Assembly: GCA_964367355.1 (NCBI GenBank)
Contig: CAYIWY010000007.1
Coordinates: 37,961 to 82,253 of the forward strand
From: an uncultured Gammaproteobacteria bacterium
GTDB lineage: Bacteria; Patescibacteriota; Microgenomatia; Woykebacterales; RBG-16-39-9b
Length of the DNA stretch: 44,293 bases
Reading direction: 5' to 3'
Below the pieces are notes generated by a model. It made no database searches. It was not told the origin of the DNA and saw only the letters and a program-made list of their open reading frames with translations. Each line of letters starts with the position of its first letter. The first letter of the stretch is position 1. The translations under genes were made by a program, and so were the position numbers. Shown here piece after piece: positions 10,163 through 42,752 of the stretch.

Positions 10163-10435
10163 CGGCAGGCCTGCAACAGCCCAATGATAATTTGGTTTTT
10201 CCCCAAGATTGGTATTTTTAGGTAGGAAGAGTACCTATGAATTTACCCTTGAAAGACACTTTGGAAGAGAGAGTTGTGAAAAGTGTCAAGGGGTCAAATT
10301 GAGTAATTTAGCCCCTCCATCGCGGGAAATTCATTTACCATTACGGGAAATCCTATCTAAATTATGACACCATCCGAAAATTAATGTCAAGAGTAACTTA
10401 CCTTTCTATATAGGAAAAATAATTTCCATGGTAAA

Positions 10436-10509
10436 ATTTCTTTAGAATAACAACCTTTGACAGCAAAGGTTGCGCCAAACTGCCACCTGGCAGCGTAAGC
10501 TAAAGAAAT
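10436..10509 (+). other. Candidate three-way-junction RNA structure in the long leader of the atp-like operon
   Basis: atttctttag (10436-10445) pairs with ctaaagaaat (10500-10509). This encloses the hairpins aacctttg-acag-caaaggtt (10452-10471) and ctgcca-cc-tggcag (10480-10493). Confidence 0.3.
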
Positions 10510-10662
10510 CCAAGTCGCTCGTATACGTCGACAACTCCTTCGATAAATCGGAGTCAAACACGTCCGACTTAATAGCTCGCTTGGTTGAATTTCTTTTAGA
10601 CGCTTACTTGCAACGGTGGTTAGTGAAGCGAGAATCTGGTACACGTGCTTGTAACGGCGGTT

Positions 10663-14985: not shown

Positions 14986-15112
14986 ATATGAACCATAGGT
15001 TATCAAAACTTAAAGTAATTGTTTTTTCATTCTCGGAAGAAAGTAAAAAACAGCTGCAGCTTTATACCGGGGTTGATTTATGGGGAGAATAGTAGCGAAT
15101 TAAGAATTATTA

Positions 15113-15137
15113 AATGTACACCTCCGAGGTGTACATT
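15113..15137. repeat. REP-like hairpin (aatgtacacc-tccga-ggtgtacatt) between atpG and atpD
   Basis: 10-bp perfect stem. The arm tgtacacc is identical to the arm of the hairpin immediately upstream of the RAYT gene. Confidence 0.7.
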
Positions 15138-17838: not shown

Positions 17839-18210
17839 ATGACAAAAATTTTAATAGTTGAGGACGATATCAGCCTATTAAATCTTTACAACGAAGTATT
17901 AAAAAAAGAAGGTTTTGAAATTGAGCTAGCTGACGACGGTCAGCAGGCTTTACTAAAAGCTGAGACGTTTATTCCAGATGTGGTCTTGCTTGATCTAATG
18001 CTGCCGTATATTGATGGTTTTGAAGTTCTGGAAAAACTAAAATCAAATCCAATCACAAAGGACGCTAGGGTAATAGTTCAGACCAATCTTGATTCAGAAA
18101 TCCAAAAAGAAAAAGCGCTTAAACTTGGAGCCTCTGAATTTTTAGTAAAATCAGACGATAATCCAGGAAGTTTACTCAAAGAAATCAAGAAACTCCTCGC
18201 AATATATTGA
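17839..18210 (+). CDS. Single-domain CheY-like response-regulator receiver
   Basis: KILIVEDD...VVLLDLMLPYIDGFEVLEKLK...VIVQTNL...K. 123 aa with no output domain. Confidence 0.9.
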   Translation: MTKILIVEDDISLLNLYNEVLKKEGFEIELADDGQQALLKAETFIPDVVLLDLMLPYIDGFEVLEKLKSNPITKDARVIVQTNLDSEIQKEKALKLGASEFLVKSDDNPGSLLKEIKKLLAIY

Positions 18211-18237
18211 CAAGGCCCGTCCTTGTCAATATTTTTT
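18204..18237 (+). terminator. Copy B of the palindrome family: atattgacaagg-cccgt-ccttgtcaatat plus a T-run. It resembles an intrinsic terminator and also reads as TTGACA-N17-TATTTT
   Basis: 12-bp perfect stem that includes the receiver gene stop codon (tga 18208-18210), a 5-nt loop, then ttttt. The same bases give a consensus -35 hexamer (18207-18212) and a -10-like tatttt (18230-18235), 43 nt upstream of ATG 18278. Confidence 0.5.
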
Positions 18238-18277
18238 GGGTTTGATTAGTTACGTTGTTTCCTCTAAAATAGAAGTA

Positions 18278-27968: not shown

Positions 27969-30900
27969 CTATTGTTGGTTGAGGACGAACCAAGTAAACT
28001 TGATCGCTTGCGCTGCCGACGCAGTCGCTTGGTCTGGTAGATCACCACTGTTGCGCTCCAGAGCCACTACAAAGCCTTCTCCGGTTTTTTTCTCTTTGAC
28101 GTAGAGCGACAGACCTCCAGTTTTGGTTGAGGCTGTTATGTTAACTAAAGATTCTTCAGTTATCTTGTCACTTTCGACGAATACCTCAGTTTCATTCTGT
28201 GCAAAACTCGCTTCACCAGCCGTCTTGGCCTCTTTCTTGACCACGGCTTCGCCAAAGACCAACTTTGTAAATTCTCCCAAAGCTGCGGTTACAGATTTAA
28301 AGAAAGCTTCGCCAGTGTCAGACACCCAGGCTACTACTTGACCGGCTGAATTTTCCCAGGCAAATTTCAGGCCAGCAGAGATAGTCGCCACCAAGTTATT
28401 GTCCGAATCTAGCGAAATCAAAGCAGATGAAGTTGCAGCGGTGGGACTTGCTGAGGCAATAGCAACGGAAGGATCAAGCTCAATTAGTTTTTGTGGGTCA
28501 GCGTAGTGAGTATTCACAAAGACCACAACCATTCCCTGACCAGCGCCATCAAAGGATGTCAACGCTCTACCCAGGACGTAGCCGGGTTTGCTCGCCTTCA
28601 TACCTACACCAGCAACAGAAGAACTGGTGATTAGATCCCCAGGCCTTATCGGACCGTTTTCCGTAGTTACTTTCACTGGTACCCTACCGACTAGGGCAAC
28701 CGGTATAGGTCGGCCGTAACCAGCGCCAAAACCATCATCCAAAATTTTCCCTGGTTTGGTAGATACAGCACCCAGTACTTGGTTGTCGTAAGGTCGTCCA
28801 CTCTTAGCTGTTCCAGAAGGAATGGCAGGGTCTATGCTGACTATATCACCGGCAACAATCGTACCATCTCTAGTGTAGTAATTCTCAGCTAGGTCAGCTC
28901 CTACTTGCAGGAGTGCAACGGTGATGGTACCAATGGTACCATCGTCAGAGCCGCTACCGGAAGTACAGATGGTGTAGTTGACCTGTGAGGTGGTCGAAGG
29001 GTAGTCAATAAAAGTGGCACTGGCTGCTGTTTGTTGCCCGCTTGTGGTTCTGAACGTTCCCCAGAAATCAGTGCCGACAATGGTACTGGTACAAGCAGCT
29101 GCTGAGCCAATGTTGCGGCGGACGTGAAATTCCGGTTCTTCATCGTTTGCTTCGTCAGAATTGAGCTGTATTGTGACTGCAATCAATACACCCTGACTAG
29201 TGGCAGTAGGGGTCATATTTGGTTGAGTACCATCCCAGACATCATTTGCCGAAGTGTAAGCCACAGTTTCACCGGTTGAGTCGGTAAAGAAAGCTGAGTC
29301 TGGTAAACCACTTCCACAACTAACTACCCCTGATCCATTTGTAGTTAAACTAGCGCAGCTGGTCAGCCCACCAAATGTAATAGTCCCGCCAGTGGAGTTG
29401 CCAATCGTAATAGTCTGGGCTCTTGCGGCTGTACCAATGAGAATTGAACCGTTACCAGAGGTCGAGGTACCGACGTCCAGCGAGATGTTGCCAGCCGTTC
29501 CCGCCGAAGCATTACCTGTTACCAAAGTAATTCCACCAGTCGCAGTGGTACCGGTCCCAGTATTTAGAGTCACCAAACCAGAGGCTCCAGCACCGTTGTT
29601 GGCCGAGCCGATGGTAGTCGCTGCTCTCGAAGTTAAGTTGGGACCAAAATCGAGCAGGGAAAAATTGTCTGCATCAATGTCACTTGTCCAAGGGGTTTGG
29701 GAGCCACCCCCACAAGCACCGTCAGTTAAGTTACAAAGAATTTTAGGTCCAGTAGCCTCATAAATTTTGAATTTGCTAGCATTTGTGTCGTACCAAATGT
29801 CGCCAGCTGCTGCTCCGGTCACACCGGCGACACTCGTTTTCAAGAAATCCCCAGTAGCAATTGCCACTCGACCATCGGCTGAGTCCAGAGTCAGCCCGGC
29901 TGCGCCGGAGGATATTGTCAAAGCACCACCGGCAGTCATTGTTGTCGTAGTTCCGAGGGAAAGGGTATTGTTGGCACTGCGGAAAAGTTGAACTGGGCTA
30001 GTTACCCCAAGTGATATACCCGATGTTGCTGTTCCGCCGTCATCCCAGGTTTGAATTCTTGATACGATTGTACCGCCAGCCGGATCCCCGACAAAGAACC
30101 TGCCGACTCCGGAGTCGCCGTCAATACCTAAAGCCGGCTGACCGTTGGCCACGAAACTCATCCGATTAGTAAGGCCGCCGACAGTAGCTCGGTAGAGTCC
30201 TAGGTTAGTTCGGTTAGTGAAACCAAATGCGGGCGAGTTAACAGCCCCGTCAGGAATAAATATTTGTCCTGTTGATATTAAATAAGGACCGGTATTAGCG
30301 ATACCGCGGTAAAGAGTAACCGCGTTGGCATCATTGCCCCATTGAATTCCGTTGGCCGGTTGGACGTTGTTGTAGGTGGCTCCATTACAGTCAAAACAAA
30401 TTCCGTAGTGGGTACCAGTAGCATTATATTGATCAGCGATGTTGATAACAACCGAAGTTTGGTCAGCGTCAGCAATTGCGTAAGAACCAATGTTAATAGC
30501 GTTGTTGCGGCAGGTCGCGGTTGCCGGGCAAGCCCCAGCAATCGTGGTTAAATCTAGTGAGTTGGTGGTGTAGGCATTAGCTGCGGCCGTTCCGGCAATT
30601 GTCGGCGAGATTTGTAAACCAGTGGTGGTTGTGCCGGTAGCCGTGAGTGCAGAGGTAAAACTAAGCGCAGCCAATTTTCCGGTGGTCAGGGCGGTGTCAC
30701 TTAGAGCAAAAGCGTTACCGGAAGCTGTAGCCGAGCTAGCAATAATTACCCCGGTAGTGTCTGGGGTTAAGGTAATATTACCGGCACTTCCAGTCCCAAT
30801 GGTTAAACCTGCGGCTGCAGTTAAGTTTGTTCCCAGACCAGTGATATTATTCGAATTGAACGCTAGTCCAGTTGAGGAGAAGTTGTATTCATCCGCTCCG

Positions 30901-32960
30901 GCAATCTGCAGGTTTATTGTTTTCCCACTCACAGCGTTGATATTTAAATCTCCGGTATTGTCTCGGAAGATTGAGTTCACTGTTCCAGCTGGTGGGCTGG
31001 CATCGTCGCTTGTAAAGGTCAGCGAACCATTGGTAGTGGTATCGACTTCTCCGGAAAAACTACCCCCCGGACAGGCTCCCCAGACAGGGATACCGCTAGC
31101 ACCTGCCCCAGAAAGAAGACACTGGCTGCCAGTCTCAGTCTCAACCACTCGGGTGACCACCCCACCAGTAGTAGTGTAAAGAACAGCATTCGCATCGGTA
31201 ATCATGGTGGAGAAAGTGATTGTGCCCGAAGAAGTTAGTCCAGTGGCGCCGGTGATTGCTCCAGCGCCGGTAATATCAATAGTTGGTGTGTTTAAGAAAT
31301 TGGTGTAACCGCCACCGCCACTATTCGAGAAATTGAGACCATCAGCGATTGCAACACTGTCATCGGCATTGTCAATGGCGATTCCCACGTCCAAACCATT
31401 GGTATTGGCACTGGCGGCTTGTTGGATAAACAGCCCTTGGGTTGTCCCGGCGGAGGCAGACGGTGTGCCAATGATTGAAATAACATCAACTGTTCCAGCC
31501 AGGTCTGAAGTCATAGCGACATTTTCTGTACCCAGTAAAGTAAAGTTTGTATCGGTTGTAAAAGTAGGTACGCCGTTAACAGTAATCGTATCCCCGGTAG
31601 TATTACCGATTGCAATTGTGCTGGAGTTTATATTTGTAGTTGAACCATCTGCGCCAGTTAATGTTGTCCCGGAGTCAAATGTCAGGGTTCCCGAGATAAA
31701 GTTGTCAGTCGTATCGCTTCTTAAGAAAGATAATGAGTCGATACCGTCCAAGGAGTCGGAGTTTAGGGCGTAACTAGATGAAGCAATTCTTTGACGTGGG
31801 GTGGCCTCAGCATCGGCACCAATCTTTACGCCTAGGTAGAGTGTGGAGTTGTCAGAGAAAAGACTTGCAGGGATAGCGGTATCGGCTTGTCCAGTGTCTC
31901 CAAGTTGAACTGAAAAGATCCCGTTTTGATCTGGTGTCACTGACCAAGTTTTGGATTCCCAAAGACAAGTGTTGGCACAAGGAGATCCCGTGTCCCCACT
32001 GGTTGAGGTGTAAATCCGATAGACTATGTTGGTTGCGGCAGTCACTGGGTTTCCCGAGGGATCGGTCAATCTTCCCTGGAAAGACAATATTCGAGGTGGA
32101 GTAGCTGCCAGAACAAAACCTTTCTGGATCTCAGTTTTTAGATTGGTAATATCAAGTGGTTTCGGTGCAAACAAGCCTTCCCAGACAAGCAGACCAACCA
32201 CCAAAACTGCTCCAGCACTAGCTGCCCAATTAACGTATTCGCTCATCGGGTGACCACGATAAGCATGCCACCAGCGTGGTTTTTTTACTTTAAACCGTTG
32301 CCAGAAACGCCCACCGTTGACAAGGCCCGGCCTTGTCAAGTTAACAGGATTTGTTTCGTAGACAATGTCTTCCTTATGGAAGTTGAAGAAGTCTTTTAAT
32401 GAGTAGAGGTAACGGTTAATCGATGCTGGTGAAACCTGTTTGGCTTTAAGAAAAGAAGTATATCGGTTTATATCAATCCGACTCACATGGTCAATAACTT
32501 TTTGGTTAATACCGCTGCCCGCAGGTTTTAGCCAGGCAAAAAAGGAGTTGAGATCAGAACGATATTGCTTGGTCGTACTTTCAGGTGCGCCCTGTTCCTG
32601 GATGTGTTCAACGTAGGTTTGAATTGGAGATACTTTGATTACTTCTGATACATTTACTGTGGTTATGGGTAAGACTTGCTCAACTTTATTTAAGTCGTAG
32701 CCTTTTAAAGCCAACCAGTTGGTAAAAGCCTTTAAACTGTAGCCAAAGCGACGAATCGTGCTTTCGGAAAAGTCGGCTTTTAAAATTGCGAGAGCAGCGC
32801 TAATGTGCGAATTATCAAGTTGCGTTTCCGCTGGGAGTTTTTCTAAAACACGGCGAAGATCGGAAACGTAGTTCTTTACTGTGGAACGAGAAGAGTTAGT
32901 TGAGATAAGGTGATTTATGAACTCCGGTAGGAGATTTTGTAGATTTTGAGCTGTTAACAT
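27969..32960 (-). CDS. Giant (1663 aa) membrane-anchored tail-fibre-like surface protein with two N-terminal integrase SAM-like (core-binding) domains and a C-terminal IMC/Peptidase_G2-like domain
   Basis: Complete ORF in the track. The N-terminal ~200 aa are two copies of the Phage_int_SAM pattern (..STVKNYVSDLRRVLEKL...TIRRFGYSLKAFTNWL and ..TTKQYRSDLNSFFAWL...SINRYLYSLKDFFNF), with no recombinase catalytic domain. TM helix VNWAASAGAVLVVGLLVWEGLF. Fibre motif DGIDSLSFLRSDTTDNFISGTLTF. C-terminal segment VALVGRVPVKVTTENGPIRPGDLITSSSVAGVGMKASKPGYVLGRAL. Confidence 0.85.
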   Translation of the reverse strand: MLTAQNLQNLLPEFINHLISTNSSRSTVKNYVSDLRRVLEKLPAETQLDNSHISAALAILKADFSESTIRRFGYSLKAFTNWLALKGYDLNKVEQVLPITTVNVSEVIKVSPIQTYVEHIQEQGAPESTTKQYRSDLNSFFAWLKPAGSGINQKVIDHVSRIDINRYTSFLKAKQVSPASINRYLYSLKDFFNFHKEDIVYETNPVNLTRPGLVNGGRFWQRFKVKKPRWWHAYRGHPMSEYVNWAASAGAVLVVGLLVWEGLFAPKPLDITNLKTEIQKGFVLAATPPRILSFQGRLTDPSGNPVTAATNIVYRIYTSTSGDTGSPCANTCLWESKTWSVTPDQNGIFSVQLGDTGQADTAIPASLFSDNSTLYLGVKIGADAEATPRQRIASSSYALNSDSLDGIDSLSFLRSDTTDNFISGTLTFDSGTTLTGADGSTTNINSSTIAIGNTTGDTITVNGVPTFTTDTNFTLLGTENVAMTSDLAGTVDVISIIGTPSASAGTTQGLFIQQAASANTNGLDVGIAIDNADDSVAIADGLNFSNSGGGGYTNFLNTPTIDITGAGAITGATGLTSSGTITFSTMITDANAVLYTTTGGVVTRVVETETGSQCLLSGAGASGIPVWGACPGGSFSGEVDTTTNGSLTFTSDDASPPAGTVNSIFRDNTGDLNINAVSGKTINLQIAGADEYNFSSTGLAFNSNNITGLGTNLTAAAGLTIGTGSAGNITLTPDTTGVIIASSATASGNAFALSDTALTTGKLAALSFTSALTATGTTTTGLQISPTIAGTAAANAYTTNSLDLTTIAGACPATATCRNNAINIGSYAIADADQTSVVINIADQYNATGTHYGICFDCNGATYNNVQPANGIQWGNDANAVTLYRGIANTGPYLISTGQIFIPDGAVNSPAFGFTNRTNLGLYRATVGGLTNRMSFVANGQPALGIDGDSGVGRFFVGDPAGGTIVSRIQTWDDGGTATSGISLGVTSPVQLFRSANNTLSLGTTTTMTAGGALTISSGAAGLTLDSADGRVAIATGDFLKTSVAGVTGAAAGDIWYDTNASKFKIYEATGPKILCNLTDGACGGGSQTPWTSDIDADNFSLLDFGPNLTSRAATTIGSANNGAGASGLVTLNTGTGTTATGGITLVTGNASAGTAGNISLDVGTSTSGNGSILIGTAARAQTITIGNSTGGTITFGGLTSCASLTTNGSGVVSCGSGLPDSAFFTDSTGETVAYTSANDVWDGTQPNMTPTATSQGVLIAVTIQLNSDEANDEEPEFHVRRNIGSAAACTSTIVGTDFWGTFRTTSGQQTAASATFIDYPSTTSQVNYTICTSGSGSDDGTIGTITVALLQVGADLAENYYTRDGTIVAGDIVSIDPAIPSGTAKSGRPYDNQVLGAVSTKPGKILDDGFGAGYGRPIPVALVGRVPVKVTTENGPIRPGDLITSSSVAGVGMKASKPGYVLGRALTSFDGAGQGMVVVFVNTHYADPQKLIELDPSVAIASASPTAATSSALISLDSDNNLVATISAGLKFAWENSAGQVVAWVSDTGEAFFKSVTAALGEFTKLVFGEAVVKKEAKTAGEASFAQNETEVFVESDKITEESLVNITASTKTGGLSLYVKEKKTGEGFVVALERNSGDLPDQATASAAQAIKFTWFVLNQQ
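32318..32339. repeat. Copy C of the palindrome family (tgacaaggcccggccttgtcaa) inside the coding sequence of 27969..32960
   Basis: Identical 22-mer to copy F. Translated on the minus strand as NLTRPGLVN. Confidence 0.7.
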
Positions 32961-33221: not shown

Positions 33222-33273
33222 ATATACACCTGAAATGTACACCCGGAAATGTACACCCGGCGGGTGTACATTT
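33222..33273. repeat. REP cluster upstream of RAYT: three direct half-sites plus an inverted copy
   Basis: atatacacc (33222-33230), aaatgtacaccc (33233-33244) and aaatgtacaccc (33247-33258), then gggtgtacattt (33262-33273). The last two form a 12-bp stem with a 3-nt loop. Confidence 0.8.
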
Positions 33274-33299
33274 ATTTGCACTTATTGTAGAGTGGAAGT

Positions 33300-33926
33300 A
33301 TGGCAACAAAGAAACGTTATTTTGTTAATGGAAATTATTATCACGTCTTTAATCGGGGAGTCGAGAAGAGAAAAGTATTTCTAAAGGATAACGATTATAA
33401 AAGATTTTCTGAAACGATGGAGCATTGTTTAAAAAATGCCGGTCAGATAACGCGAAAATCTTTAAGGAAAAACACTCAACTTGCACTAGCTCCCGTTGAT
33501 GTAGTCGCTTATTGCTTAATGTCGAACCATTTTCATCTTTTAGTCAAGCAGAACTCTGAGAATGGTATTTCAACCTTCTTCAGTCGTCTGTCTAATAGCT
33601 ATACTAAGTATTTCAATACGAAATACGATCGGGTCGGGCCGTTGTTTCAAGGACCATTCAAGACGGTAAATATTGAAACTGATAGCCAACTCTTGCATCT
33701 CTCACGTTACATTCACCTCAACCCGGTTGTTTCAGGTATTACAGACGATCCTAGGGCGTTCCAGTGGTCTTCGTACAAGGATTATATTAGCGACAATGAG
33801 ACTTTTATTAAGCCTGAGATTGTTCTTGGAAATTTTATCAGTCGAGAGGACTACCAGCAGTTTGTCTTAGATCAAATAGATTACGCTCGAACATTGGAGG
33901 AACTAAAACATCTCTCCCTTGACTAA
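33300..33926 (+). CDS. REP-associated tyrosine transposase (RAYT; IS200-like HUH/Y1 transposase)
   Basis: YYHVFNRG, HUH motif SNHFHLLV and catalytic-Tyr motif SRYIHLNPV, in the order expected for Y1_Tnp/RAYT proteins. 208 aa. Flanked on both sides by related hairpins. Confidence 0.85.
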   Translation: MATKKRYFVNGNYYHVFNRGVEKRKVFLKDNDYKRFSETMEHCLKNAGQITRKSLRKNTQLALAPVDVVAYCLMSNHFHLLVKQNSENGISTFFSRLSNSYTKYFNTKYDRVGPLFQGPFKTVNIETDSQLLHLSRYIHLNPVVSGITDDPRAFQWSSYKDYISDNETFIKPEIVLGNFISREDYQQFVLDQIDYARTLEELKHLSLD

Positions 33927-33930
33927 GAAA

Positions 33931-33953
33931 GTGTCCACCCTCCGGGTGGACAT
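33931..33953. repeat. REP hairpin downstream of RAYT (gtgtccaccc-tcc-gggtggacat)
   Basis: 9-bp perfect stem beginning 5 nt after the RAYT stop, followed by ttt. Confidence 0.75.
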
Positions 33954-34166
33954 TTTACGATTAATTCAGCACAAAAAGTTTAACTCTAGTTACACTTTAT
34001 TATTTATTCGGAAAGTTTGTTTGGGACAGAGAATTACTGCTTGTTTTGAGCTTTCTTGACGATCCAGGCGTTGTATACGAATTAATTCTTGGAAGATGCT
34101 TTGGATATTATCCAAGCATTGTATCGGAATCAACCACAAAATTTAGTTAAATAAATGAAGAAGATT

Positions 34167-36297: not shown

Positions 36298-36996
36298 TTA
36301 AAAAGCTCCAGTAGTTATGTATGTTAAAACTTGTTGGTAGGTTCCAGCGGCAGTAGTTGCAGCATTGATTGAAGCTGCATAACAAAGTGTTGTCGTCTCG
36401 GCAGTGTAGGTAGGACCGTTTTTGTAGGCAACTGATTGTGGTGCAGCGGTGATTGGACTTGCAGTAAACGGAGTATTACTACAATCAGTGTCCTGAGAAA
36501 TATCTCGGCCAGCTTGAGAAGTTGCTAGACCGTATTCTTCTGCGCCTGCAGTCACAGCCCCATCACCAACCTGATCAATATCTGCTGTTCCATAACGAAG
36601 TTCACCATCTTCAACTACCCTTGTTGTATAACCCCCCACATTTGTTGTAACTGCAACAGAATGGCTTAGGGTTGAAACAGCAGAACCTGTAAGTGTACCG
36701 AGATTAATAACGTTTGAACTGAGTGTTACTGTGATTTTTGGAATGTCAGCGATAACACATTGAAAACCACTACAAGCTCGGTAATTGGTTGAGTTACCGA
36801 TACCAGGAGCAAAGCCGCCACCGGTGTCGGTCAAATTGTAACTAGCCGAGTTTTTTGCGCCCCCAAAATCACCAAACTCGCCTTCAAGTTTATAGTTGGT
36901 TGAGCTCGAGGGAAAAGCATAAGCTAGGCCAGCAAAAGAAAAGGATAGCAGAAAGAGGGTGAGATAGATTAAAATTGTACCAGAGAGTTTTGGCAT
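36298..36996 (-). CDS. Secreted surface (fibre or pilin-like) protein, paralog of 35181..36290
   Basis: Signal peptide LIYLTLFLLSFSFAGLAYA. GAEEYGLATS and the C-terminal AAGTYQQVLTYITTGAF parallel the upstream gene. Confidence 0.5.
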   Translation of the reverse strand: MPKLSGTILIYLTLFLLSFSFAGLAYAFPSSSTNYKLEGEFGDFGGAKNSASYNLTDTGGGFAPGIGNSTNYRACSGFQCVIADIPKITVTLSSNVINLGTLTGSAVSTLSHSVAVTTNVGGYTTRVVEDGELRYGTADIDQVGDGAVTAGAEEYGLATSQAGRDISQDTDCSNTPFTASPITAAPQSVAYKNGPTYTAETTTLCYAASINAATTAAGTYQQVLTYITTGAF

Positions 36997-37109
36997 AATT
37001 AAATTTTAGTGTAGTTAAAATAGATTAGCAAATTACAGGTTCTTGAAAACGCGGCAAAAGTATGTGAAAATTAGCCGAAAGTTTAAAAGTGAAACTTTTC
37101 GAATATAAA

Positions 37110-39881
37110 ATGTCTACAGAACGATACAACCCGAAAAAAATACAGGCCAGGTGGCAGAAGAAATGGTCGACTGACAAGATTTTTGTGGTTGATTTGCAAA
37201 AATCTGCAAGGCCTTTTTTAGCCCAAGGGTCGCAAGATTTTGGCGTTAAGCCAAAATTTTACAATCTGATGATGTTCCCTTACCCCTCAGGGGATGGTCT
37301 TCACGTCGGTCACGTCTATGCTTTCGGCGGTGCCGATACCTACGGCCACTTCAAAAAAATGCAGGGTTTTGACGTTTTTGAACCCATGGGCTTTGATTCT
37401 TTCGGGATTCATTCGGAGAATTACGCACTCAAAATCAAGAAGCATCCACAACAGTTGATCGATGAGACCACAAAATACTTCCGAGAAGAGCAGCTCCAGA
37501 AGCTCGGAGCCTTGTTCGACTGGGATCACGAGGTGATCACTTCTGACATACATTATTATAGATGGACACAGTGGCTCTTTGTCCAATTGTTTAAAGCGGG
37601 GTTAGCGGTCAGAAAGAAGGCCGCGGTTGATTGGTGCCCAAGTTGTAAAACAGTTTTAGCCGACGAGCAAGTGATAGCCGGTAACTGTGAGCGCTGCGGT
37701 ACCGAAGTGATTCAGAAGGAGCTTGAACAATGGTTCTTTAAAATTACCGTTTACGCACAAAAACTACTGGATAATCTCGAGACTATCGATTGGTCTGAAA
37801 CCACCAAAACAATGCAGCGTAATTGGATTGGTAGAAGTGAAGGAGCTGAGATTGAATTTAGAGTTAAGAATTCAGAGTTACAACATGCGCTAGGAAGCGC
37901 GGCATTTGCTGACGCAAAAGTATCGGAATCATTTGCTGACGCAAAAGTAAAAGTTTATACAACCAGGCCAGACACAATTTTTGGTGCTACCTTTATGGTC
38001 ATTGCGCCCGAACACCCACAAATAGATCAATTAATAACAAAAGACAACACAACAAAAGTATCAGACTATATCAATCAGGCTAGGAACAAGAGTGAAGTTG
38101 AAAGAGCCGCGGAAAAGAGTGGAGTTTTTACTGGAAGTTACGCCATTAACCCGTTAACTAAAAACGAAGTCCCGATTTGGGTGGCCGACTACGTTCTGAT
38201 GGGGTATGGAACCGGGGCAGTCATGGCCGTTCCGGCCCACGATCAGAGAGACTTTGAGTTTGCCAAGAAGTACGATTTGGAGATTAAAGCTGTCATCTCG
38301 AGTGAGTCTGCGAGCGAGAGATCTCTCACTGGCGTTCGAGATGACAAAGAAGACAATTTGAAAGAGGCCTTCGTAGGTGAGGGAAAGTTAGTTAATTCAG
38401 GAGAGTTTAACGGACTAACTTCAGAAGAGGCTAAAGAGAAGATATCAGAATATATCGAAAGCAAAAATATTGGATCAAGAAAAGTTAACTTTCATTTGCG
38501 TGATTGGTTAATCTCCAGGCAGCGTTACTGGGGCCCACCAATCCCAATGATTCACTGTGAAAACTGCGCAAAACAAGGCAAGAGTTGGTTTACGACTGAA
38601 GAAGCAGAGAAAAGATTAAAGGATCAAAGCTCACAGATGAAAGAAAAAAACACTAGCCAAGATCTTAAATCTGAAATGCCTGGTTGGCCCGCCCGCCACG
38701 CGAGCGAGAGCGTTGCGGGTTGGTACCCAGTTGCGGAAGAAGATTTACCGGTGAAACTTCCGGAGGTTGAGGACTATCAACCAAAAGGTTCAGGCGTTAG
38801 TCCGTTGGCGGCGTTGGAAGATTTCGTCAACGTCAAATGCCCAGCCTGCGGTTCAAATGCAAAAAGGGAAACCGACGTCTCCGACACATTTTTAGATTCG
38901 AGTTGGTATTTTCTTAGGTATCCCTCTGTTGGAATTAAGAATTCAGAGCATGCGCTCGGAAGCGCGGCATTTGCTAACGCAAAAGTATCGGAATCATTTG
39001 CTAACGCAAAAGTTGAGCTTCCCTGGAACCAAGAAATAACCAAGAAATGGTTGCCGGTTGACAGCTACATTGGCGGCAATGAACACGCTGTTCTGCATTT
39101 GCTTTACAGCCGGTTTATCACCATGGCGCTGCACGACATGGGTTTGATCGATTTTGAAGAACCATTCAAAAAGTTTCGCGCTCACGGCTTGATAATTTAC
39201 AAGGGTGCCAAGATGAGTAAGTCGCGCGGAAACGTGGTCAACCCCAACGAATATATCGATGCCTACGGCAGCGACGCTCTGAAAATGTACCTGCTATTCA
39301 TTGGGCCGTTTGAGCTTGGGGGAGAGTTTAACGATCGGGCGATAACCGGTGTCTACCGCTTTTTGAATAGAGTTTGGACTTTGGTTCAAGAAGGTAAGTT
39401 TGTAACTAACACAGACCCAGTCTTAGCAAACGAGCTAAATAAACTCAATTCTAAGGTTGAATCAGATCTGGAAAACCTGAAATTTAATACAGCCATCGCC
39501 GCATTAATGGAGTTTTTAAACGAACTTTATAAAAACCGTTCAAGCCTATCGCGGGAAATCGTGGTTAATTACCTACTTTTACTAGCCCCACTTGCACCAT
39601 TCACAACTGAAGAACTTTGGGAAATTCTGGGCGAAACAAGCTCAATTCACCTGCAGAAATGGCCAGATCAACTTAATACCACGGTCAAAGAAGAGCAAGA
39701 TACGATTATTATCCAAGTCAACGGTCGTTTCCGCGATAAAATTGAGGTTGACAAAGATGTTTCTAAGGAAGAAGTTAGCCGCTTGGCTCTTGACCAACCC
39801 AAAGTGAAGACTTACACTCAAAATAAGCAGCCTAAAAATATTATCTACGTGGCTGGTAAGTTGATTAACATTGTAATTTAA
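37110..39881 (+). CDS. leuS: Leucyl-tRNA synthetase with lineage-specific insertions
   Basis: The track starts at GTG 37089. An ATG at 37110 gives MSTERYNPKKIQARWQKKW, the canonical LeuRS N-terminus. HIGH motif (HVGHVY), TTRPDTIFGATF of the CP1 editing domain, and KMSKS (GAKMSKSRGN). Confidence 0.95.
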   Translation: MSTERYNPKKIQARWQKKWSTDKIFVVDLQKSARPFLAQGSQDFGVKPKFYNLMMFPYPSGDGLHVGHVYAFGGADTYGHFKKMQGFDVFEPMGFDSFGIHSENYALKIKKHPQQLIDETTKYFREEQLQKLGALFDWDHEVITSDIHYYRWTQWLFVQLFKAGLAVRKKAAVDWCPSCKTVLADEQVIAGNCERCGTEVIQKELEQWFFKITVYAQKLLDNLETIDWSETTKTMQRNWIGRSEGAEIEFRVKNSELQHALGSAAFADAKVSESFADAKVKVYTTRPDTIFGATFMVIAPEHPQIDQLITKDNTTKVSDYINQARNKSEVERAAEKSGVFTGSYAINPLTKNEVPIWVADYVLMGYGTGAVMAVPAHDQRDFEFAKKYDLEIKAVISSESASERSLTGVRDDKEDNLKEAFVGEGKLVNSGEFNGLTSEEAKEKISEYIESKNIGSRKVNFHLRDWLISRQRYWGPPIPMIHCENCAKQGKSWFTTEEAEKRLKDQSSQMKEKNTSQDLKSEMPGWPARHASESVAGWYPVAEEDLPVKLPEVEDYQPKGSGVSPLAALEDFVNVKCPACGSNAKRETDVSDTFLDSSWYFLRYPSVGIKNSEHALGSAAFANAKVSESFANAKVELPWNQEITKKWLPVDSYIGGNEHAVLHLLYSRFITMALHDMGLIDFEEPFKKFRAHGLIIYKGAKMSKSRGNVVNPNEYIDAYGSDALKMYLLFIGPFELGGEFNDRAITGVYRFLNRVWTLVQEGKFVTNTDPVLANELNKLNSKVESDLENLKFNTAIAALMEFLNELYKNRSSLSREIVVNYLLLLAPLAPFTTEELWEILGETSSIHLQKWPDQLNTTVKEEQDTIIIQVNGRFRDKIEVDKDVSKEEVSRLALDQPKVKTYTQNKQPKNIIYVAGKLINIVI
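37864..37948 (+). repeat. In-frame repeat element, copy 1, inside leuS
   Basis: ttaagaattcagag(ttacaa)catgcgctaggaagcgcggcatttgctgacgcaaaagtatcggaatcatttgctgacgcaaaagt. Encodes KNSELQHALGSAAFADAKVSESFADAKV. Confidence 0.8.
38935..39013 (+). repeat. In-frame repeat element, copy 2, inside leuS
   Basis: 79 nt. Differs from copy 1 by three substitutions and one 6-nt indel (counted by eye). Encodes KNSEHALGSAAFANAKVSESFANAKV. Confidence 0.8.
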
Positions 39882-39890
39882 TTTCCCTTA

Positions 39891-40307
39891 ATGACTAGTA
39901 ATCTCAGAGATGACAACTACCTTATTTCTCGGCTCGATCATTTATGGAGCACTTATTTTGGTGATGTAACCCAAACCAATAAAGTTTTTATCAAGTTTGG
40001 ACGTTCTTCAAAATACCGCTTTGGTTCGATCCGTTTAACTCCAAAAGACAAAAGTAGCCGAGTCATAATTAACGGTATGTTTCGCGACCCAAAGTACCCA
40101 AGCGAAATTATCGATCATACAATTGCCCATGAACTAGTTCATTACACGCAAGGTTTTTCCTCACCGCATCCAAAAATGCATGCCTATCCTCATCGTGGGG
40201 GAGTAATCGATAAAGAACTTAACGCCCGCGGACTCAAACATCTGGTTTTTATCTATAATGTTTGGGTTGTGGATTATAAACGTTCTCTAGGAATAGTAAC
40301 TAAATAA
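39891..40307 (+). CDS. HExxH zinc-metallopeptidase-like protein (SprT/DUF45-like)
   Basis: IIDHTIAHELVHYTQG..H motif. 138 aa. Starts 10 nt after the leuS stop. Confidence 0.45.
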   Translation: MTSNLRDDNYLISRLDHLWSTYFGDVTQTNKVFIKFGRSSKYRFGSIRLTPKDKSSRVIINGMFRDPKYPSEIIDHTIAHELVHYTQGFSSPHPKMHAYPHRGGVIDKELNARGLKHLVFIYNVWVVDYKRSLGIVTK

Positions 40308-40370
40308 GGTTGGAACGTTTCATTTTCACTTTGTGAAAAAGTAAACGGAGTTTGGGCTAAAAGTTAAAAT

Positions 40371-40406
40371 TAGCCTGCAATATACTCCAAGGACGGGCCT
40401 TGTCAA
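40371..40406. repeat. Copy D: 36-bp direct repeat tagcctgcaatatactccaaggacgggccttgtcaa. On the minus strand it reads TTGACA-N16-TATATT
   Basis: 35/36 identical to 41169-41204. Lies 5 nt beyond the brnA stop codon. Confidence 0.7.
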
Positions 40407-40411
40407 TGATA

Positions 40412-40672
40412 TTATTCTTTGGTAGAGCGGTGGAGGATAGAGGATGCAAGGGTTTGATATGGTATTCCTTCCTCGGCTGCTTTAACTTTCAACTTGTGTA
40501 AATCCCTTTCGGTCAAGCGAATATTAATGTTTCTGGTTTTATTTAATGTATTTCTGGCCGCTTCTTCAAGCAATGCTTTTTCCTTGGCAAAATCTTTAAC
40601 TCTAACTAATTTGCCTTCTTCAAAGGCCTTTACGATTTCTTCTTCTTCTTCATCTAAAGTATAGTACTTCAT
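40412..40672 (-). CDS. brnA: BrnA-like (RHH/CopG-type) antitoxin
   Basis: C-terminal INIRLTERDLHKLKVKAAEEGIPYQTLASSILH matches the BrnA pattern (ISLRLP...L..LK..A....VPYQSLIK..L). Lies 4 nt downstream of the toxin gene. Confidence 0.7.
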   Translation of the reverse strand: MKYYTLDEEEEEIVKAFEEGKLVRVKDFAKEKALLEEAARNTLNKTRNINIRLTERDLHKLKVKAAEEGIPYQTLASSILHRSTKE

Positions 40673-40675
40673 AAT

Positions 40676-40948
40676 TTATTTACTCCTTAAATATTTTTTA
40701 GTCGCCTTTCTGTTAGGAATAATAGTTTTTAAAAAAGTTTTTTTCTCCTCCCTAACATAAGGCACTAAGTAAGCATAATTATTAATTTCTACAACCATAA
40801 TTCTTTGATTAGGATAACGTCTTTGGTTGGGGTGAGGGAACGTATCCAGTAATCGACCTTCTTCTACAGCTAATTTTACTTCTTCAAAACCAATGTTTCT
40901 TTCTTTGTTTAACTTTTTATTCTTTTCCTCATCCCAATCAAAGTACAC
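40676..40948 (-). CDS. brnT: BrnT-like (DUF497) ribonuclease toxin
   Basis: N-terminal YFDWDEEKNKKLNKERNIGFEEV matches (F/I)xWDExKxxxNxxKHGxxFeE. C-terminal IIPNRKATKKY matches ISxRxAxxxE. Toxin-first gene order, as in brnTA. Confidence 0.75.
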   Translation of the reverse strand: MYFDWDEEKNKKLNKERNIGFEEVKLAVEEGRLLDTFPHPNQRRYPNQRIMVVEINNYAYLVPYVREEKKTFLKTIIPNRKATKKYLRSK

Positions 40949-41168: not shown

Positions 41169-41204
41169 TAGCCTGTAATATACTCCAAGGACGGGCCTTG
41201 TCAA
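41169..41204. repeat. Copy E: 36-bp direct repeat tagcctgtaatatactccaaggacgggccttgtcaa. On the minus strand it reads TTGACA-N16-TATATT
   Basis: 35/36 identical to 40371-40406. Lies about 110 nt beyond the stop of 41313..42752. Confidence 0.7.
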
Positions 41205-41312: not shown

Positions 41313-42752
41313 CTAATTGACAATCCACCAATCGAAGGATAGGTCAAAGTTTAGAGCTTGATCGAGTTCAACTGTGAAATCTTGATCAGGATTTTTTGAA
41401 GCAATAAATAGCGATTGGCCTTTGGCCGAATTCAAGAGCGAGGTGAATATTTTCGAATTAGCCTTAACCAAGCTTGATTCTATAATTACCGAAGTTTCTC
41501 CGGCTTTAATTACCATCGTGCCGGAAGTTTTATCGCCGGCTATTTTGAGTTCGCCGGTAGTTAGATCCTCTGTCTCGATCGACTTGGCAATCAGTTTATT
41601 GGAAATTGTCAGATCGCCAATTAAGTTAATGGAACCGGAGATTTCAAGCTGACCTTTACTATCAAGCTTGATCAGGTTGGACCCAAGAGTGATCGAGTTA
41701 TTGACAACCAAGTTGTCAGTCGTGATGTTGATCGCGACCAAGTCGGCGGTGGTAATATTTTCCATTCCGGTTAATGTGGTTGGCAGCCCAGCGTTTAGTG
41801 GTGGTGCCCAGTAACCACCTTGGACAAAAACCAGGATTTTCCCCTGACAAGGCCCGGCCTTGTCAATGTCGCAGGCAAAACTTTCAAGTGCCTTTCCAAC
41901 AATCGGTCCAGGTTGAGTGGCTTTCATTGCAACCCCAGGGGTTGAAGAAGACGTTAGATAATCACCAACTTCAATTGGGCCGTTCTCACTTGAAACTTTG
42001 GTTGGCACGCGTCCCGCGAGTGCAAGTTTCGCCAAGTATTGTGGTTTTCCAAGTTCGTCAGGATTATCAATAAATGTTGGATCGGTACTTTGAATTCCCA
42101 GTAAGGTTTTTTGATAAGGCGAACCAGATTTCTTGACCGTAAAATCAGTTGCAGCCGTATCAATTGCCAAAACATCACCAGCTTCTAAGGACTCACTGGC
42201 AACTGCTCGTTCGGCGATATCAAAGGTTCCGGTCCGGTTCCAGTAGCTACAAGTTCCACCAGTTCCTTTCCAGAAAATTCGAGTATTAGTGGAGTCAAAA
42301 CCAAAGTCACCATTGGCTAGGGAAGCACAAGTTGGTGCGGCTTGGGCGGTATTAAGATTGAAACCAACGGCGGTGGTTGAGCCACCCGAGGCAGTAATTG
42401 CTCCACTAAAATAATTGAGTCCACCAGCAGAGTAGATCGAATAGCTAGTCGTAGATCCAAATTGGTTGGCGATATACAAACCATAACTGGTGGTTGTACT
42501 GGCATCCCCAAAATTAACAATATTGATTCCATATGCAGTTGTTGGCACTGAACTTAACCAAGTTTTTGATAAGCTGAGTCCGTAAGCGGTGGTAATTGCA
42601 CCACCAATTCCACCTGCGGATCTTACAGCAATAAATGTACCGTAAAGAGAGGTAATTGCAGTATTGGAAGATTGGTATGCGGTAATTTGAGCGCCTAGTA
42701 CTGAGGAAGCGGTTGAACCAACCCCACCCTGCCAGTTGGCGCTGGTGACCAA
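41313..42752 (-). CDS. C-terminal fragment of a frameshifted fibre gene (IMC/G2-like domain plus a conserved tail module)
   Basis: The track ORF begins at an arbitrary TTG. The same frame stays open upstream to the stop at 42927-42929 and reads fibre-like sequence there (GNSAFGGNASVNANRIIYADESFTGSG..). It contains LALAGRVPTKVSSENGPIEVGDYLTSSSTPGVAMKATQPGPIVGKAL. Confidence 0.8.
   Translation of the reverse strand: MVTSANWQGGVGSTASSVLGAQITAYQSSNTAITSLYGTFIAVRSAGGIGGAITTAYGLSLSKTWLSSVPTTAYGINIVNFGDASTTTSYGLYIANQFGSTTSYSIYSAGGLNYFSGAITASGGSTTAVGFNLNTAQAAPTCASLANGDFGFDSTNTRIFWKGTGGTCSYWNRTGTFDIAERAVASESLEAGDVLAIDTAATDFTVKKSGSPYQKTLLGIQSTDPTFIDNPDELGKPQYLAKLALAGRVPTKVSSENGPIEVGDYLTSSSTPGVAMKATQPGPIVGKALESFACDIDKAGPCQGKILVFVQGGYWAPPLNAGLPTTLTGMENITTADLVAINITTDNLVVNNSITLGSNLIKLDSKGQLEISGSINLIGDLTISNKLIAKSIETEDLTTGELKIAGDKTSGTMVIKAGETSVIIESSLVKANSKIFTSLLNSAKGQSLFIASKNPDQDFTVELDQALNFDLSFDWWIVN
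41845..41866. repeat. Copy F of the palindrome family (tgacaaggcccggccttgtcaa) inside the coding sequence of 41313..42752
   Basis: Identical 22-mer to copy C but read in a different frame, as DIDKAGPCQ. Confidence 0.7.

What the first reader, a model, noticed from the sequence alone, without database searches (positions are those of the whole stretch)
37864..39013. Two copies of an ~80-nt repeat inserted in-frame at different sites of leuS
Copies at 37864-37948 and 38935-39013 differ only by 3 substitutions and a 6-nt indel (counted by eye). They lie about 1.07 kb apart inside an essential gene. Both are read in the same frame, as KNSE(LQ)HALGSAAFA(D/N)AKVSESFA(D/N)AKV. One falls just before the TTRPDT start of the CP1 editing domain. 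The other falls between the FLRYP segment and WLPVDxYIGGxEH. These are positions where, as I recall canonical LeuRS sequences, no such segment exists. Each copy contains an internal tandem duplication (catttgct(g/a)acgcaaaagt, twice) and small hairpins (tttgc-tgac-gcaaa; gcgct-agga-agcgc). Near-identity at the DNA level within one gene implies recent spread of a nucleotide element that is tolerated as extra peptide loops, analogous to RPE-type in-frame palindromic elements.
Basis: partly seen in the sequence, partly recalled or inferred. Interest (0 to 1): 0.7.

Follow-up and report, generated by a model that had tools for sequence, protein, structure and literature searches.

The report
Hairpin repeat copied twice into leuS
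An ~80-base DNA repeat with three small hairpins sits twice, in frame, in two naturally variable surface loops of the leucyl-tRNA synthetase gene of an uncultured groundwater CPR bacterium (Woykebacteria); it is real, and it is a small new example of the known tolerance of short repeats inside essential genes.

Summary
Window 37864-37948 and 38935-39013 differ by 3 substitutions and one 6-nt indel. Both are read in the leuS frame. The arrangement was assembled identically in at least 8 groundwater metagenomes from three studies, so it is not an artefact.

The five closest orthologues (70-78% nt identity) lack 21 codons at site 1 and 14 codons at site 2. A confident AlphaFold model places both inserts in low-confidence loops.

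No further copy occurs in the 44-kb window, in 160 kb from relatives, or in two public contig collections. However, contigs of the same depth in four metagenomes carry at least four partial, diverged copies (33-54 nt, about 88-91% identity). So this is a low-copy interspersed family private to this genome.

It has no terminal inverted repeats, no target duplication and no overall palindrome. The junctions share short homology with native leuS sequence.

Across 114 related LeuRS proteins both sites are length-hypervariable. In another lineage an unrelated palindromic DNA element also occupies both loops.

Best reading: a hairpin repeat entered one loop and was copied into the other by homology-assisted templated copying. 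It resembles RPE/REP elements in outcome but is not a member of those families. Moderate interest.

The parts
37089..39881 (+). leuS (leucyl-tRNA synthetase). The ORF runs from GTG 37089 (930 aa). The gene as called elsewhere starts at ATG 37110 (923 aa).
   Evidence: ORF. Pfam tRNA-synt_1, tRNA-synt_1_2 (editing) and Anticodon_1. Homologues are Woykebacteria/Patescibacteria LeuRS. PDB 1H3N match at E = 3e-203.
37864..37948 (+). Repeat copy 1 (85 nt) at site 1. It sits in the turn of the beta-hairpin just before TTRPDT. It adds a net 21 codons compared with the closest orthologues.
   Evidence: residues 253-278 are coil, pLDDT 48-66, between strands 242-252 and 279-284.
38935..39013 (+). Repeat copy 2 (79 nt) at site 2, in the loop between FLRYPSVG and ELPWN...WLPVD. 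It adds a net 14 codons compared with the closest orthologues.
   Evidence: between helix 593-606 and strand 634-636, pLDDT 60-77.
37878..37883 (+). TTACAA (Leu-Gln). This is the 6-nt indel, present in copy 1 and in external copy A1 and absent from copy 2.
   Evidence: reported as 'put in behind 38948: TTACAA'. In one search, A1 aligns to 37868-37921 without gaps.
37886..37901 (+). Hairpin H1 of copy 1: TGCGCT-AGGA-AGCGCG. Its counterpart in copy 2 is 38951-38966, with loop CGGA.
   Evidence: Fold. Substitution 37892 is the first loop base.
37903..37948 (+). Motif M (CATTTGCTGACGCAAAAGT, hairpin TTTGC-TGAC-GCAAA) occurs twice, 27 nt apart: 37903-37921 and 37930-37948, separated by ATCGGAAT.
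   Evidence: Substitutions 37911 and 37938 are the second loop base of each hairpin.
38968..39013 (+). The same M-spacer-M arrangement in copy 2. Both loops read TAAC (Asn instead of Asp).
37854..37880 (+). 14-nt tandem. Native GAATTTAGAGTTAA (Glu-Phe-Arg-Val-Lys) is directly followed by the start of the element, GAATTCAGAGTTAC (12/14 identical). This is possible junction homology.
   Evidence: TRF score 47. A coincidental tandem of similar score lies at 39027-39048, so this is only suggestive.
37215..37256 (+). Another in-frame insert in the same gene (FLAQGSQDFGVKPK, 42 nt, hairpin ATTTTGGC-GTTAA-GCCAAAAT). It is not part of the repeat family. It shows that this leuS carries five lineage-variable inserts.
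38301..38357 (+). Another in-frame insert (SESASERSLTGVRDDKEDN), containing the palindrome GAGAGATCTCTC.
   Evidence: (I7), (pLDDT below 50 at residues 404-412).
38682..38723 (+). Another in-frame insert. A 30-nt GC-rich core (CCCGCCCGCCACGCGAGCGAGAGCGTTGCG) is flanked by direct GGTTGG repeats, a net gain of 12 codons.
   Evidence: and (pLDDT below 50 at residues 519-525).

Best explanation
The two segments are copies of a short DNA repeat with three small hairpins. Its modules are a left part, hairpin H1, and the 19-nt hairpin motif M present twice 27 nt apart. The repeat belongs to a low-copy interspersed family private to this Woykebacteria genome.

One copy came to lie in one of two naturally length-hypervariable surface loops of LeuRS. 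The second leuS copy was most likely made from the first. The likely route is homology-assisted templated copying between the two loops, that is, non-allelic gene conversion or replication template switching at hairpin-prone DNA. Two independent transpositions are less likely.

Both copies are simply translated, as 25-27 residues (net +21 and +14), and are tolerated because they extend flexible loops outside the catalytic and editing cores.

Shown: the repeat, its frame, its absence from orthologues, its loop location, the independent assemblies, and the extra partial copies elsewhere. Inferred: the copying mechanism, its direction, translation, and neutrality.
For: (1) The repeat and its frame are real.

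(2) The five closest orthologues, whose genes are 70-78% identical in nt, lack 21 and 14 codons at the two sites. T. thermophilus LeuRS shows a clean 21-residue gap at site 1 and about 25 fewer residues at site 2.

(3) The exact 923-aa protein occurs on 11 contigs of independent assemblies. Eight runs from three studies (2019-2025) hold 100% of the k-mers. Single contigs span leuS with no differences.

(4) In the AF2 model (pLDDT 88.7, pTM 0.86) the only weak stretches are the five lineage-specific inserts.

(5) Contigs A, B and C track the depth of the leuS contig in four runs: 15.2 vs 13.3/14.5/13.5; 23.6 vs 24.6/24.8/24.8; 13 vs 12.2-13.6; 11.7 vs 11.2-14.4. They carry partial copies of 33-54 nt with 3-6 differences. 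No full-length copy is seen outside leuS at 80% likeness or better.

(6) The leuS pair is mutually closest (96% vs about 88-91%).

(7) The shared tract begins with TTAAG. This is native at site 1 (GTT AAG = Val-Lys in all relatives) and not native at site 2. Both right junctions overlap native AAAG/AAAAGT.

(8) There are no TIRs and no TSD (read directly).

(9) The loops are hypervariable across 114 LeuRS proteins. In P0012 and P0053 an unrelated palindromic DNA element lies at both loops. In P0012 its two copies are read in different frames over their left halves.

(10) All 3 substitutions fall in the 12 loop bases of the 79 aligned positions. By my arithmetic (12/79)^3 = 0.0035, or 0.023 if the two G/A changes count as one event. 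This suggests the hairpins matter as DNA or RNA.
Against: The contigs that carry the external copies could not be retrieved. Their full sequence, copy number and context are therefore unknown. A full-length master copy could sit in unassembled or collapsed sequence, because contigs drop repeats.

The external copy A1 starts exactly at the proposed left end of the element (37868) and carries TTACAA. This shows exchange between loci, not only within leuS.

Junction homologies are short (5-14 nt), and one equally good tandem in the gene is coincidental.

The left part of copy 2 (NSEHALGS) aligns in register with the native (N/S)SKxxLGG of relatives. Part of the 'repeat' may therefore be native to site 2, and the direction of copying is unresolved.

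No transcript or peptide data exist.
Confidence: 0.5

Rival explanations
1. Two independent insertions of an active non-autonomous mobile element (RPE/MITE/REPIN-like) from a master copy elsewhere. Selection would keep only in-frame, stop-free insertions in permissive loops.
For: Partial copies exist on three other contigs of the same genome, apparently in non-coding or gene-end contexts. Three of the six frames of the element are open, so in-frame survival is plausible. A Y1 (IS200/RAYT-like) transposase gene lies 3.2 kb upstream. Intragenic REPs, sometimes twice in one ORF, are documented (PMC3733652), and so are RPEs (PMC10969869).
Against: No TIR, TSD or overall palindrome. No full-length copy outside leuS in four metagenomes. 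No copy elsewhere in the 44-kb window. The Y1 gene is flanked by a different palindrome family. Net insert sizes differ (63 vs 42 nt), and the junctions overlap native sequence.
Confidence: 0.25
2. Old protein features of this lineage's LeuRS, that is, ancient expansion segments. Their DNA would be kept nearly identical by continuing gene conversion between the two loops, possibly under selection for a paired peptide module.
For: Both loops are ancient hot spots of length variation. The left part of copy 2 aligns with native residues of relatives, and with P0015's NSRLAVGQAKFKSQ. In each copy both M units carry the same loop base (G,G vs A,A), which indicates local homogenisation. The P0012 and P0053 lineages keep an older, diverged pair at the same loops.
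Against: All five closest relatives lack the extra codons. No orthologue among 8000 scored candidates, or in 1.84 billion representative proteins, carries the peptide. No function is indicated. The model gives no confident structure for the inserts.
Confidence: 0.15
3. Assembly artefact: a chimeric join or collapsed repeat between the two copies.
For: Short-read assemblers can mis-join at 65-nt repeats.
Against: The identical gene occurs on 11 contigs from independent assemblies. Eight runs from three studies hold all k-mers. Single contigs of 11-27 kb span both copies with no differences and even depth. The ORF is intact, and each copy has unique flanks collinear with orthologues.
Confidence: 0.01
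4. Intervening sequences that are removed, either by translational bypass (as for mitochondrial byps or T4 gene 60) or as mini-inteins or introns, so that they never appear in LeuRS.
For: They are hairpin-bearing inserts in an essential gene.
Against: All five inserts in this gene are multiples of 3 nt and free of stops in frame. There is no take-off/landing codon pair with a stop, no intein-sized domain or splice residues, and no Rfam intron or other RNA family match.
Confidence: 0.03

Closest known systems
Rickettsia palindromic elements (RPE)
   Same: A short non-coding-capacity repeat inserted in frame into housekeeping genes. It is translated as extra peptide at permissive surface positions. 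Copies also occur outside genes (PMC10969869).
   Different: RPEs are about 100-150 bp, palindromic over their length, and present in tens of copies per genome. Here the element is 79-85 nt with three 5-6 bp hairpins and no overall palindrome. Only about 6 mostly partial copies were detected, and it occurs in a different phylum.
REP/REPIN elements, including intragenic REPs (GTAG- and CGTC-tagged palindromes; PMC3733652)
   Same: Small hairpin units occurring singly or as dimers, in mosaic arrangements and downstream of or inside genes. Some ORFs carry the same unit twice. Y1 transposases are present in the genome.
   Different: Stems are 5 bp rather than 8-13 bp. There is no GTAG/CGTC head at the stem end. 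The units are direct (head-to-tail), not inverted dimers. The neighbouring Y1 gene is flanked by an unrelated palindrome.
MITEs
   Same: Small size, non-autonomous, able to create in-frame fusions.
   Different: No terminal inverted repeats and no target-site duplication were found. The junctions overlap native sequence.
Hairpin-associated replication template switching / ectopic gene conversion (quasipalindrome mutagenesis in E. coli, e.g. PMC7202029)
   Same: Hairpin-prone DNA, short junction homologies, templated copying of a nearby sequence, and homogenisation of tandem units.
   Different: Known bacterial cases correct or copy a few bases within one quasipalindrome. Here about 80 nt would be copied over 1.07 kb, and related pieces occur on other contigs.
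Lineage-specific expansion loops of aminoacyl-tRNA synthetases
   Same: Variable-length insertions at fixed permissive loops, with the core fold kept.
   Different: Here the loop content is recognisably a DNA-level repeat shared between two loops and with other loci.

Membership tests
RPE (Rickettsia palindromic element) | In-frame insertion into ORFs without stops, yielding an extra peptide | tested here: met
   both copies are in frame, with a net gain of 21 and 14 codons.
RPE (Rickettsia palindromic element) | About 100-150 bp, palindromic over its length (one long hairpin) | tested here: not met
   79-85 nt. The folds show only three separate 5-6 bp hairpins, z = -2.1 to -3.1.
RPE (Rickettsia palindromic element) | Tens of dispersed copies in unrelated genes of the genome | tested here: inconclusive
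   No further copy in the 44-kb window. At least four partial copies lie on three other contigs of equal depth. The whole genome is not available.
REP/REPIN (RAYT-mobilised) | 20-40 nt imperfect palindrome with a GTAG (or CGTC) head at one end | tested here: not met
   Stems are 5-6 bp. There is no GTAG. CGTC occurs only across the stem-loop junction on the minus strand (definition from PMC3733652).
REP/REPIN (RAYT-mobilised) | The cognate Y1 transposase gene is flanked by the same repeat | tested here: not met
   Y1_Tnp 33300-33926 is flanked by AAATGTACACC..GGTGTACATT palindromes at 33247-33272 and 33929-33954. These are unrelated to the leuS repeat.
MITE | Terminal inverted repeats | tested here: not met
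   The left end AAGAATTCAGAG and the reverse complement of the right end, ACTTTTGCGTC, are unrelated. The repeat finder reports no inverted arms at the element ends.
MITE | Target-site duplication flanking each copy | tested here: not met
   No common direct repeat flanks the two copies. Only AAAAGT|AAAAGT occurs at the right side of site 1, and it overlaps a native codon pair.
Intragenic templated duplication / non-allelic gene conversion | Copies share sequence that is native flank of one site; short homology at the junctions | tested here: inconclusive
   TTAAG is native at site 1 and shared by both copies. AAAG/AAAAGT overlaps at the right junctions. There is a 14-nt tandem at 37854-37880. 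The homologies are short and the direction is unresolved.
Intragenic templated duplication / non-allelic gene conversion | No full-length donor elsewhere in the genome | tested here: inconclusive
   None was seen in the contigs of four metagenomes at 80% likeness or better. Contigs can drop repeats.
Intein / intron / translational bypass element | Splicing domain or ribozyme, or a take-off/landing pair with an in-frame stop | tested here: not met
   25-27 aa only. There are no stops and no Rfam match.

The most novel reading that the evidence does not exclude
In Woykebacteria, two permissive loops of LeuRS behave as a linked pair of 'expansion sites' that repeatedly receive the same DNA element. 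At least two lineages, and probably three, show one element family at both loops. The window carries the hairpin repeat described here. P0012 and P0053 carry a GTAGAC-type palindrome; in P0012 its two copies are read in different frames. P0030 carries (CAAAATT)n heptanucleotide repeats read as QNSKFKI. This would point to one of two things. Either there is a recurrent, homology-guided inter-loop copying process seeded by simple repeats native to both loops, or there is selection for matched peptide modules on an essential translation enzyme of reduced-genome bacteria.
Probability: 0.3. Interest if true: 0.65.

Novelty: new variant of a known kind. Interest (0 to 1): 0.45.

Why it matters
It shows that short hairpin repeats are tolerated as translated loops in an essential gene outside the Rickettsia/Proteobacteria cases. 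The host here is a CPR/Patescibacteria genome, where the held literature describes no such repeats. It also gives a young, datable example of how aminoacyl-tRNA synthetase expansion loops may be built from DNA-level repeats rather than by point-wise protein evolution. The two copies are 96% identical, while orthologues at 77% identity lack them. If the inter-loop copying is recurrent, it offers a tractable system for studying templated insertions and concerted evolution inside a single gene. Practically, such inserts inflate protein length and can mislead orthology or completeness checks in MAG annotation.

Tried and rejected
(1) I scanned genome contigs and metagenome contigs with the 19-mer CATTTGCTRACGCAAAAGT. 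This gave 19 and 17 single hits in unrelated taxa, none extending beyond 19-25 nt, which is chance level. The window's own species is evidently not in those collections.

(2) A word-index search with the concatenated peptides returned nothing. It also failed its positive control, because P0001 scores 80 bits locally. I do not count it as a negative.

(3) A full HMMER search of the 31-aa profile against 1.84 billion representatives found only P0121, an unrelated ALGSDAFRD-repeat protein. The representatives are clustered at 50% identity, so recent lineage-specific inserts in other proteins would be missed.

(4) Rfam found no family in 36900-40400.

(5) The first AF2 run with a 20-sequence alignment was useless (pLDDT 53). 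It was repeated with 114 sequences.

(6) No RNA runs hold the region.

(7) I tried to read the base differences of the external copies through read laying 'other letters'. They were not listed, so an alignment of the family could not be built.

(8) A link to the neighbouring Y1 transposase is rejected, because its flanking palindromes are a different family.

(9) I checked whether the 42-nt N-terminal insert is a dispersed element. It is not: no other copy occurs in four metagenomes.
Full report
**1. The observation**

Window 37864-37948 (85 nt) and 38935-39013 (79 nt) are direct repeats, as described. The gapless 65-nt core is 95% identical, and the 14 nt TTAAGAATTCAGAG to its left are identical. 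The differences are three substitutions (37892 A/C, 37911 G/A, 37938 G/A) and one 6-nt indel, TTACAA, present only in copy 1.

The 20-mer core occurs four times, twice per copy and 27 nt apart, and nowhere else in the window. Shuffles expect zero occurrences.

Both copies lie in one ORF, 37089..39881, and are read in the same frame. The ORF is leuS (Pfam; PDB 1H3N at E = 3e-203).

**2. Not an artefact**

- The exact 923-aa product is on 11 contigs of independent assemblies.
- Three of these contigs (L001-L003) carry both copies at 100% identity.
- Eight runs from three groundwater-metagenome studies (2019, 2021, 2025) hold all sampled 31-mers of 37700-39200.
- Single contigs of 11-27 kb span the gene with no differences and even depth.

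**3. Organism and orthologues**

The nearest proteins are LeuRS of Candidatus Woykebacteria and other Patescibacteria. There is a gap between the window's protein (100%) and the next relatives (75-76% identity, 853-856 aa against 923).

I fetched the DNA of five close relatives and made a codon alignment. The genes are 70-78% identical in nucleotides. All five lack 21 codons at site 1 and 14 codons at site 2.

Against T. thermophilus LeuRS, site 1 is a clean 21-residue gap between ...FPVEGKE and VRIPVFTTRPDT. Site 2 has about 25 extra residues.

With a 114-sequence alignment, AlphaFold2 gives a confident model (pLDDT 88.7, pTM 0.86). Its only weak stretches are five lineage-specific inserts of this protein:
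- Site 1: residues 253-278 are coil between strands 242-252 and 279-284.
- Site 2: it lies between helix 593-606 and strand 634-636.

So both are loop extensions.

**4. Is it a dispersed element?**

Negative results:
- There is no further copy in the 44-kb window, by 3-mismatch search and by nhmmer with --max.
- There is none in about 160 kb from ten relatives' loci.
- The two public contig collections gave only chance 19-25-nt hits.
- The peptide is not found in 1.84 billion representative proteins. That library would miss recent inserts.
- The word-index search failed its own control.

Positive result: I laid the contigs of four metagenomes on the element, and other contigs carry partial copies.
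- Contig A has two pieces 411 nt apart. A1 matches 37868-37921 (54 nt, 6 differences, no gap, so it carries TTACAA). A2 matches 37916-37951 (3 differences).
- Contig B matches 37886-37921 (4 differences).
- Contig C matches 38968-39004 (4 differences). It then continues after a 1-nt deletion as a second M unit.

The depths of these contigs track the leuS contig in all four runs:

| Run | leuS contig | Contigs A, B, C |
|---|---|---|
| X1 | 15.2 | 13.3 / 14.5 / 13.5 |
| X4 | 23.6 | 24.6 / 24.8 / 24.8 |
| X5 | 13 | 12.2-13.6 |
| X6 | 11.7 | 11.2-14.4 |

They are therefore most likely from the same genome.

The 30-nt flanks suggest that these copies are non-coding or lie at gene ends:
- B follows a TGTTAAAAT extended -10-like sequence, and has a TAA five codons upstream in the leuS frame.
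- C and A2 run into stops within 1-6 codons after the element.

The family therefore exists but is low-copy and mosaic: left part + H1 + M in A1 and B, M-spacer-M in A2 and C. No full-length copy was seen outside leuS. I could not retrieve these contigs because the collection scans were exhausted.

**5. Anatomy against known element classes**

There are no terminal inverted repeats, no target-site duplication and no overall palindrome. The GC content equals that of the gene (0.44). Three of the six frames are open.

The net gains (63 and 42 nt) are smaller than the shared tract (85 and 79 nt). At both sites the repeat therefore overlaps or replaces native codons.
- The shared tract starts with TTAAG. 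At site 1 this is the native Val-Lys codon pair in every relative. At site 2 it is not native.
- At the right, GCAAAAGT overlaps native AAA-GTx at site 1 and AAAG..TTGAG at site 2.
- The start of the element, GAATTCAGAGTTAC, directly follows a 12/14-identical native GAATTTAGAGTTAA (TRF). This is only suggestive, because a coincidental tandem of similar score lies at 39027-39048.
- The left part of copy 2 (NSEHALGS) aligns in register with the native (N/S)SKxxLGG of relatives. The direction of copying is therefore open.

All three substitutions lie in the 4-nt loops of the three hairpins and none in the stems. By my arithmetic (12/79)^3 = 0.0035, or 0.023 if the two parallel G/A changes count as one event. 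In each copy both M units carry the same loop base. This indicates homogenisation between the tandem units.

**6. The wider pattern**

In 114 related LeuRS proteins both sites are length-hypervariable:

| Segment | Modal length | Range | Window |
|---|---|---|---|
| Site 1, IEFxV to TTRPDT | 10 aa | 8-35 aa | 31 aa |
| Site 2, FLRYP to WLPVD | 16 aa | 15-59 aa | 41 aa |

Several unrelated insert families occupy these loops.

- A palindromic 'GTAGAC' family (peptides like STDYxLQ..KQAVDSSQLAVD) is at site 1 in P0012, P0014, P0020, P0025, P0035 and P0053. It is also in the site-2 loop of P0012 and P0053.
- In P0012 the two copies align at the DNA level, have 16-20-nt inverted arms, and fold with z of -4.3 and -3.2. 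Their left halves are read in different frames, so the homology is nucleotide-level. No further copies were found in the 20-kb flanks.
- The frequent motif QNSKFKI is (CAAAATT)x3 read in frame. It occurs at both loops in different lineages. In P0030 a 21-nt match at 95% links the two loops.
- The native site-1 strand (I-E-F-K-I = ATC GAA TTC AAA ATT in P0030) already contains this heptad.

Shared simple sequence at both loops could supply the homology for inter-loop copying.

**7. Best explanation and rivals**

Best explanation (confidence 0.5): this is a low-copy interspersed hairpin repeat. It reached one hypervariable LeuRS loop and was copied to the other by homology-assisted templated copying or gene conversion. 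It is translated as flexible loops and tolerated.

Rivals:
- Two independent transpositions from an unseen master copy (0.25).
- Old expansion segments kept alike by gene conversion, or selected as a pair (0.15).
- Removal by translational bypass or splicing (0.03).
- Assembly artefact (0.01).

**8. Comparison with known systems**

It works like RPEs and intragenic REPs, which are in-frame, translated and sit at permissive positions. Some ORFs carry a REP twice (PMC10969869; PMC3733652). It fails their defining features:
- length and overall palindrome for RPE;
- GTAG/CGTC head, 8-13-bp stems and a cognate RAYT for REP;
- TIR and TSD for MITE.

The Y1 transposase gene 3.2 kb upstream is flanked by a different palindrome family. 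Hairpin-associated template switching is established in E. coli (PMC7202029), but only over much shorter distances. The held literature links no REP-type repeats with Patescibacteria.

**9. Verdict**

This is a new variant of a known kind, of moderate interest (0.45). The more novel reading is recurrent pairing of the two LeuRS loops by the same DNA element in several Woykebacteria lineages. It rests on two clear cases and one simple-repeat case. I give it a probability of 0.3.

Noticed in passing
window 37215-37264; L006 (P0005 leuS): The 42-nt N-terminal in-frame insert (FLAQGSQDFGVKPK) plus 8 following bases is 100% identical (50-nt run) between the window and L006. The two genes are only 72% identical overall, and the three closest relatives lack the insert. 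It contains an 8-bp hairpin, ATTTTGGC-GTTAA-GCCAAAAT. P0006 and P0010 have diverged versions, doubled in P0010. It is not dispersed in four metagenomes. Nucleotide-level constraint or a short-patch transfer could explain it; this remains unexplained.
   Followed up: partly
window 38682-38723: A 30-nt GC-rich core (73% GC in a 44% GC gene) is inserted in frame (PGWPARHASESV) and flanked by direct GGTTGG repeats. This looks like a target duplication or slippage product. It shares GCGAGCGAGAG with the insert at 38310.
   Followed up: partly
window 38301-38357: An in-frame insert, SESASERSLTGVRDDKEDN, contains the perfect palindrome GAGAGATCTCTC. It is absent from four of the five close relatives.
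   Followed up: partly
window 33247-33954 (also 15112-15137): A 208-aa Y1_Tnp (IS200/RAYT-like) gene at 33300-33926 is flanked on both sides by 26-nt palindromes, AAATGTACACC..GGTGTACATT. A third copy lies at 15112. The gene is syntenic in relative L009, and a Y1 gene with a TTGACACCCC/GGGGTGTCAA palindrome lies near leuS in L047. This resembles a domesticated RAYT/'TIRtron' arrangement.
   Followed up: partly
window 18208-18238, 32318-32348, 41845-41875; 40371-40406 and 41169-41204: A second palindrome family, TGACAAGGCCCGGCCTTGTCA, is present. Two 36-nt direct repeats (97% identical) that contain it flank a CopG-antitoxin/BrnT-toxin pair (about 40412-40948, annotated in L003). Relatives lack this pair at the same position, which suggests a small mobile cassette.
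   Followed up: no
L003 8741-9745 (about 1 kb beyond the window's right end): An IS30-type transposase (HTH_38 + rve) lies just past the window end. Several assemblies break there.
   Followed up: no
window 1-10600 and 27969-32960: Very large minus-strand genes for repeat-rich surface-type proteins. One (1663 aa) has Phage_int_SAM-like N-terminal hits. Internal 43-93-nt repeats occur at 180-4175.
   Followed up: no
L046 2244-2332 and 3323-3419; L051 9150-9290 and 10161-10355; L047 10701-10787; L049 8898-9005: A GTAG-containing palindromic element (arms GTCTACAGACTAC.. / ..GTAGTCAG..CTGTAGAC) is inserted in frame at LeuRS site 1 in six lineages. It also lies in the site-2 loop of P0012 and P0053. 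The same DNA motif is read in up to three different frames.
   Followed up: partly
L050 808-945 and 1741-1767; proteins P0017, P0030, P0034, P0074 and others: The recurrent peptide QNSKFKI(Q/K)N in LeuRS loops is the in-frame reading of the heptanucleotide repeat (CAAAATT)n. It occurs at site 1, at site 2 and at a third site in the editing domain.
   Followed up: partly
tool behaviour: The word-index protein search returned no hit for a query made of two exact segments of P0001, although phmmer scores that pair at 80 bits. Negatives from that tool for short queries are unreliable.
   Followed up: yes
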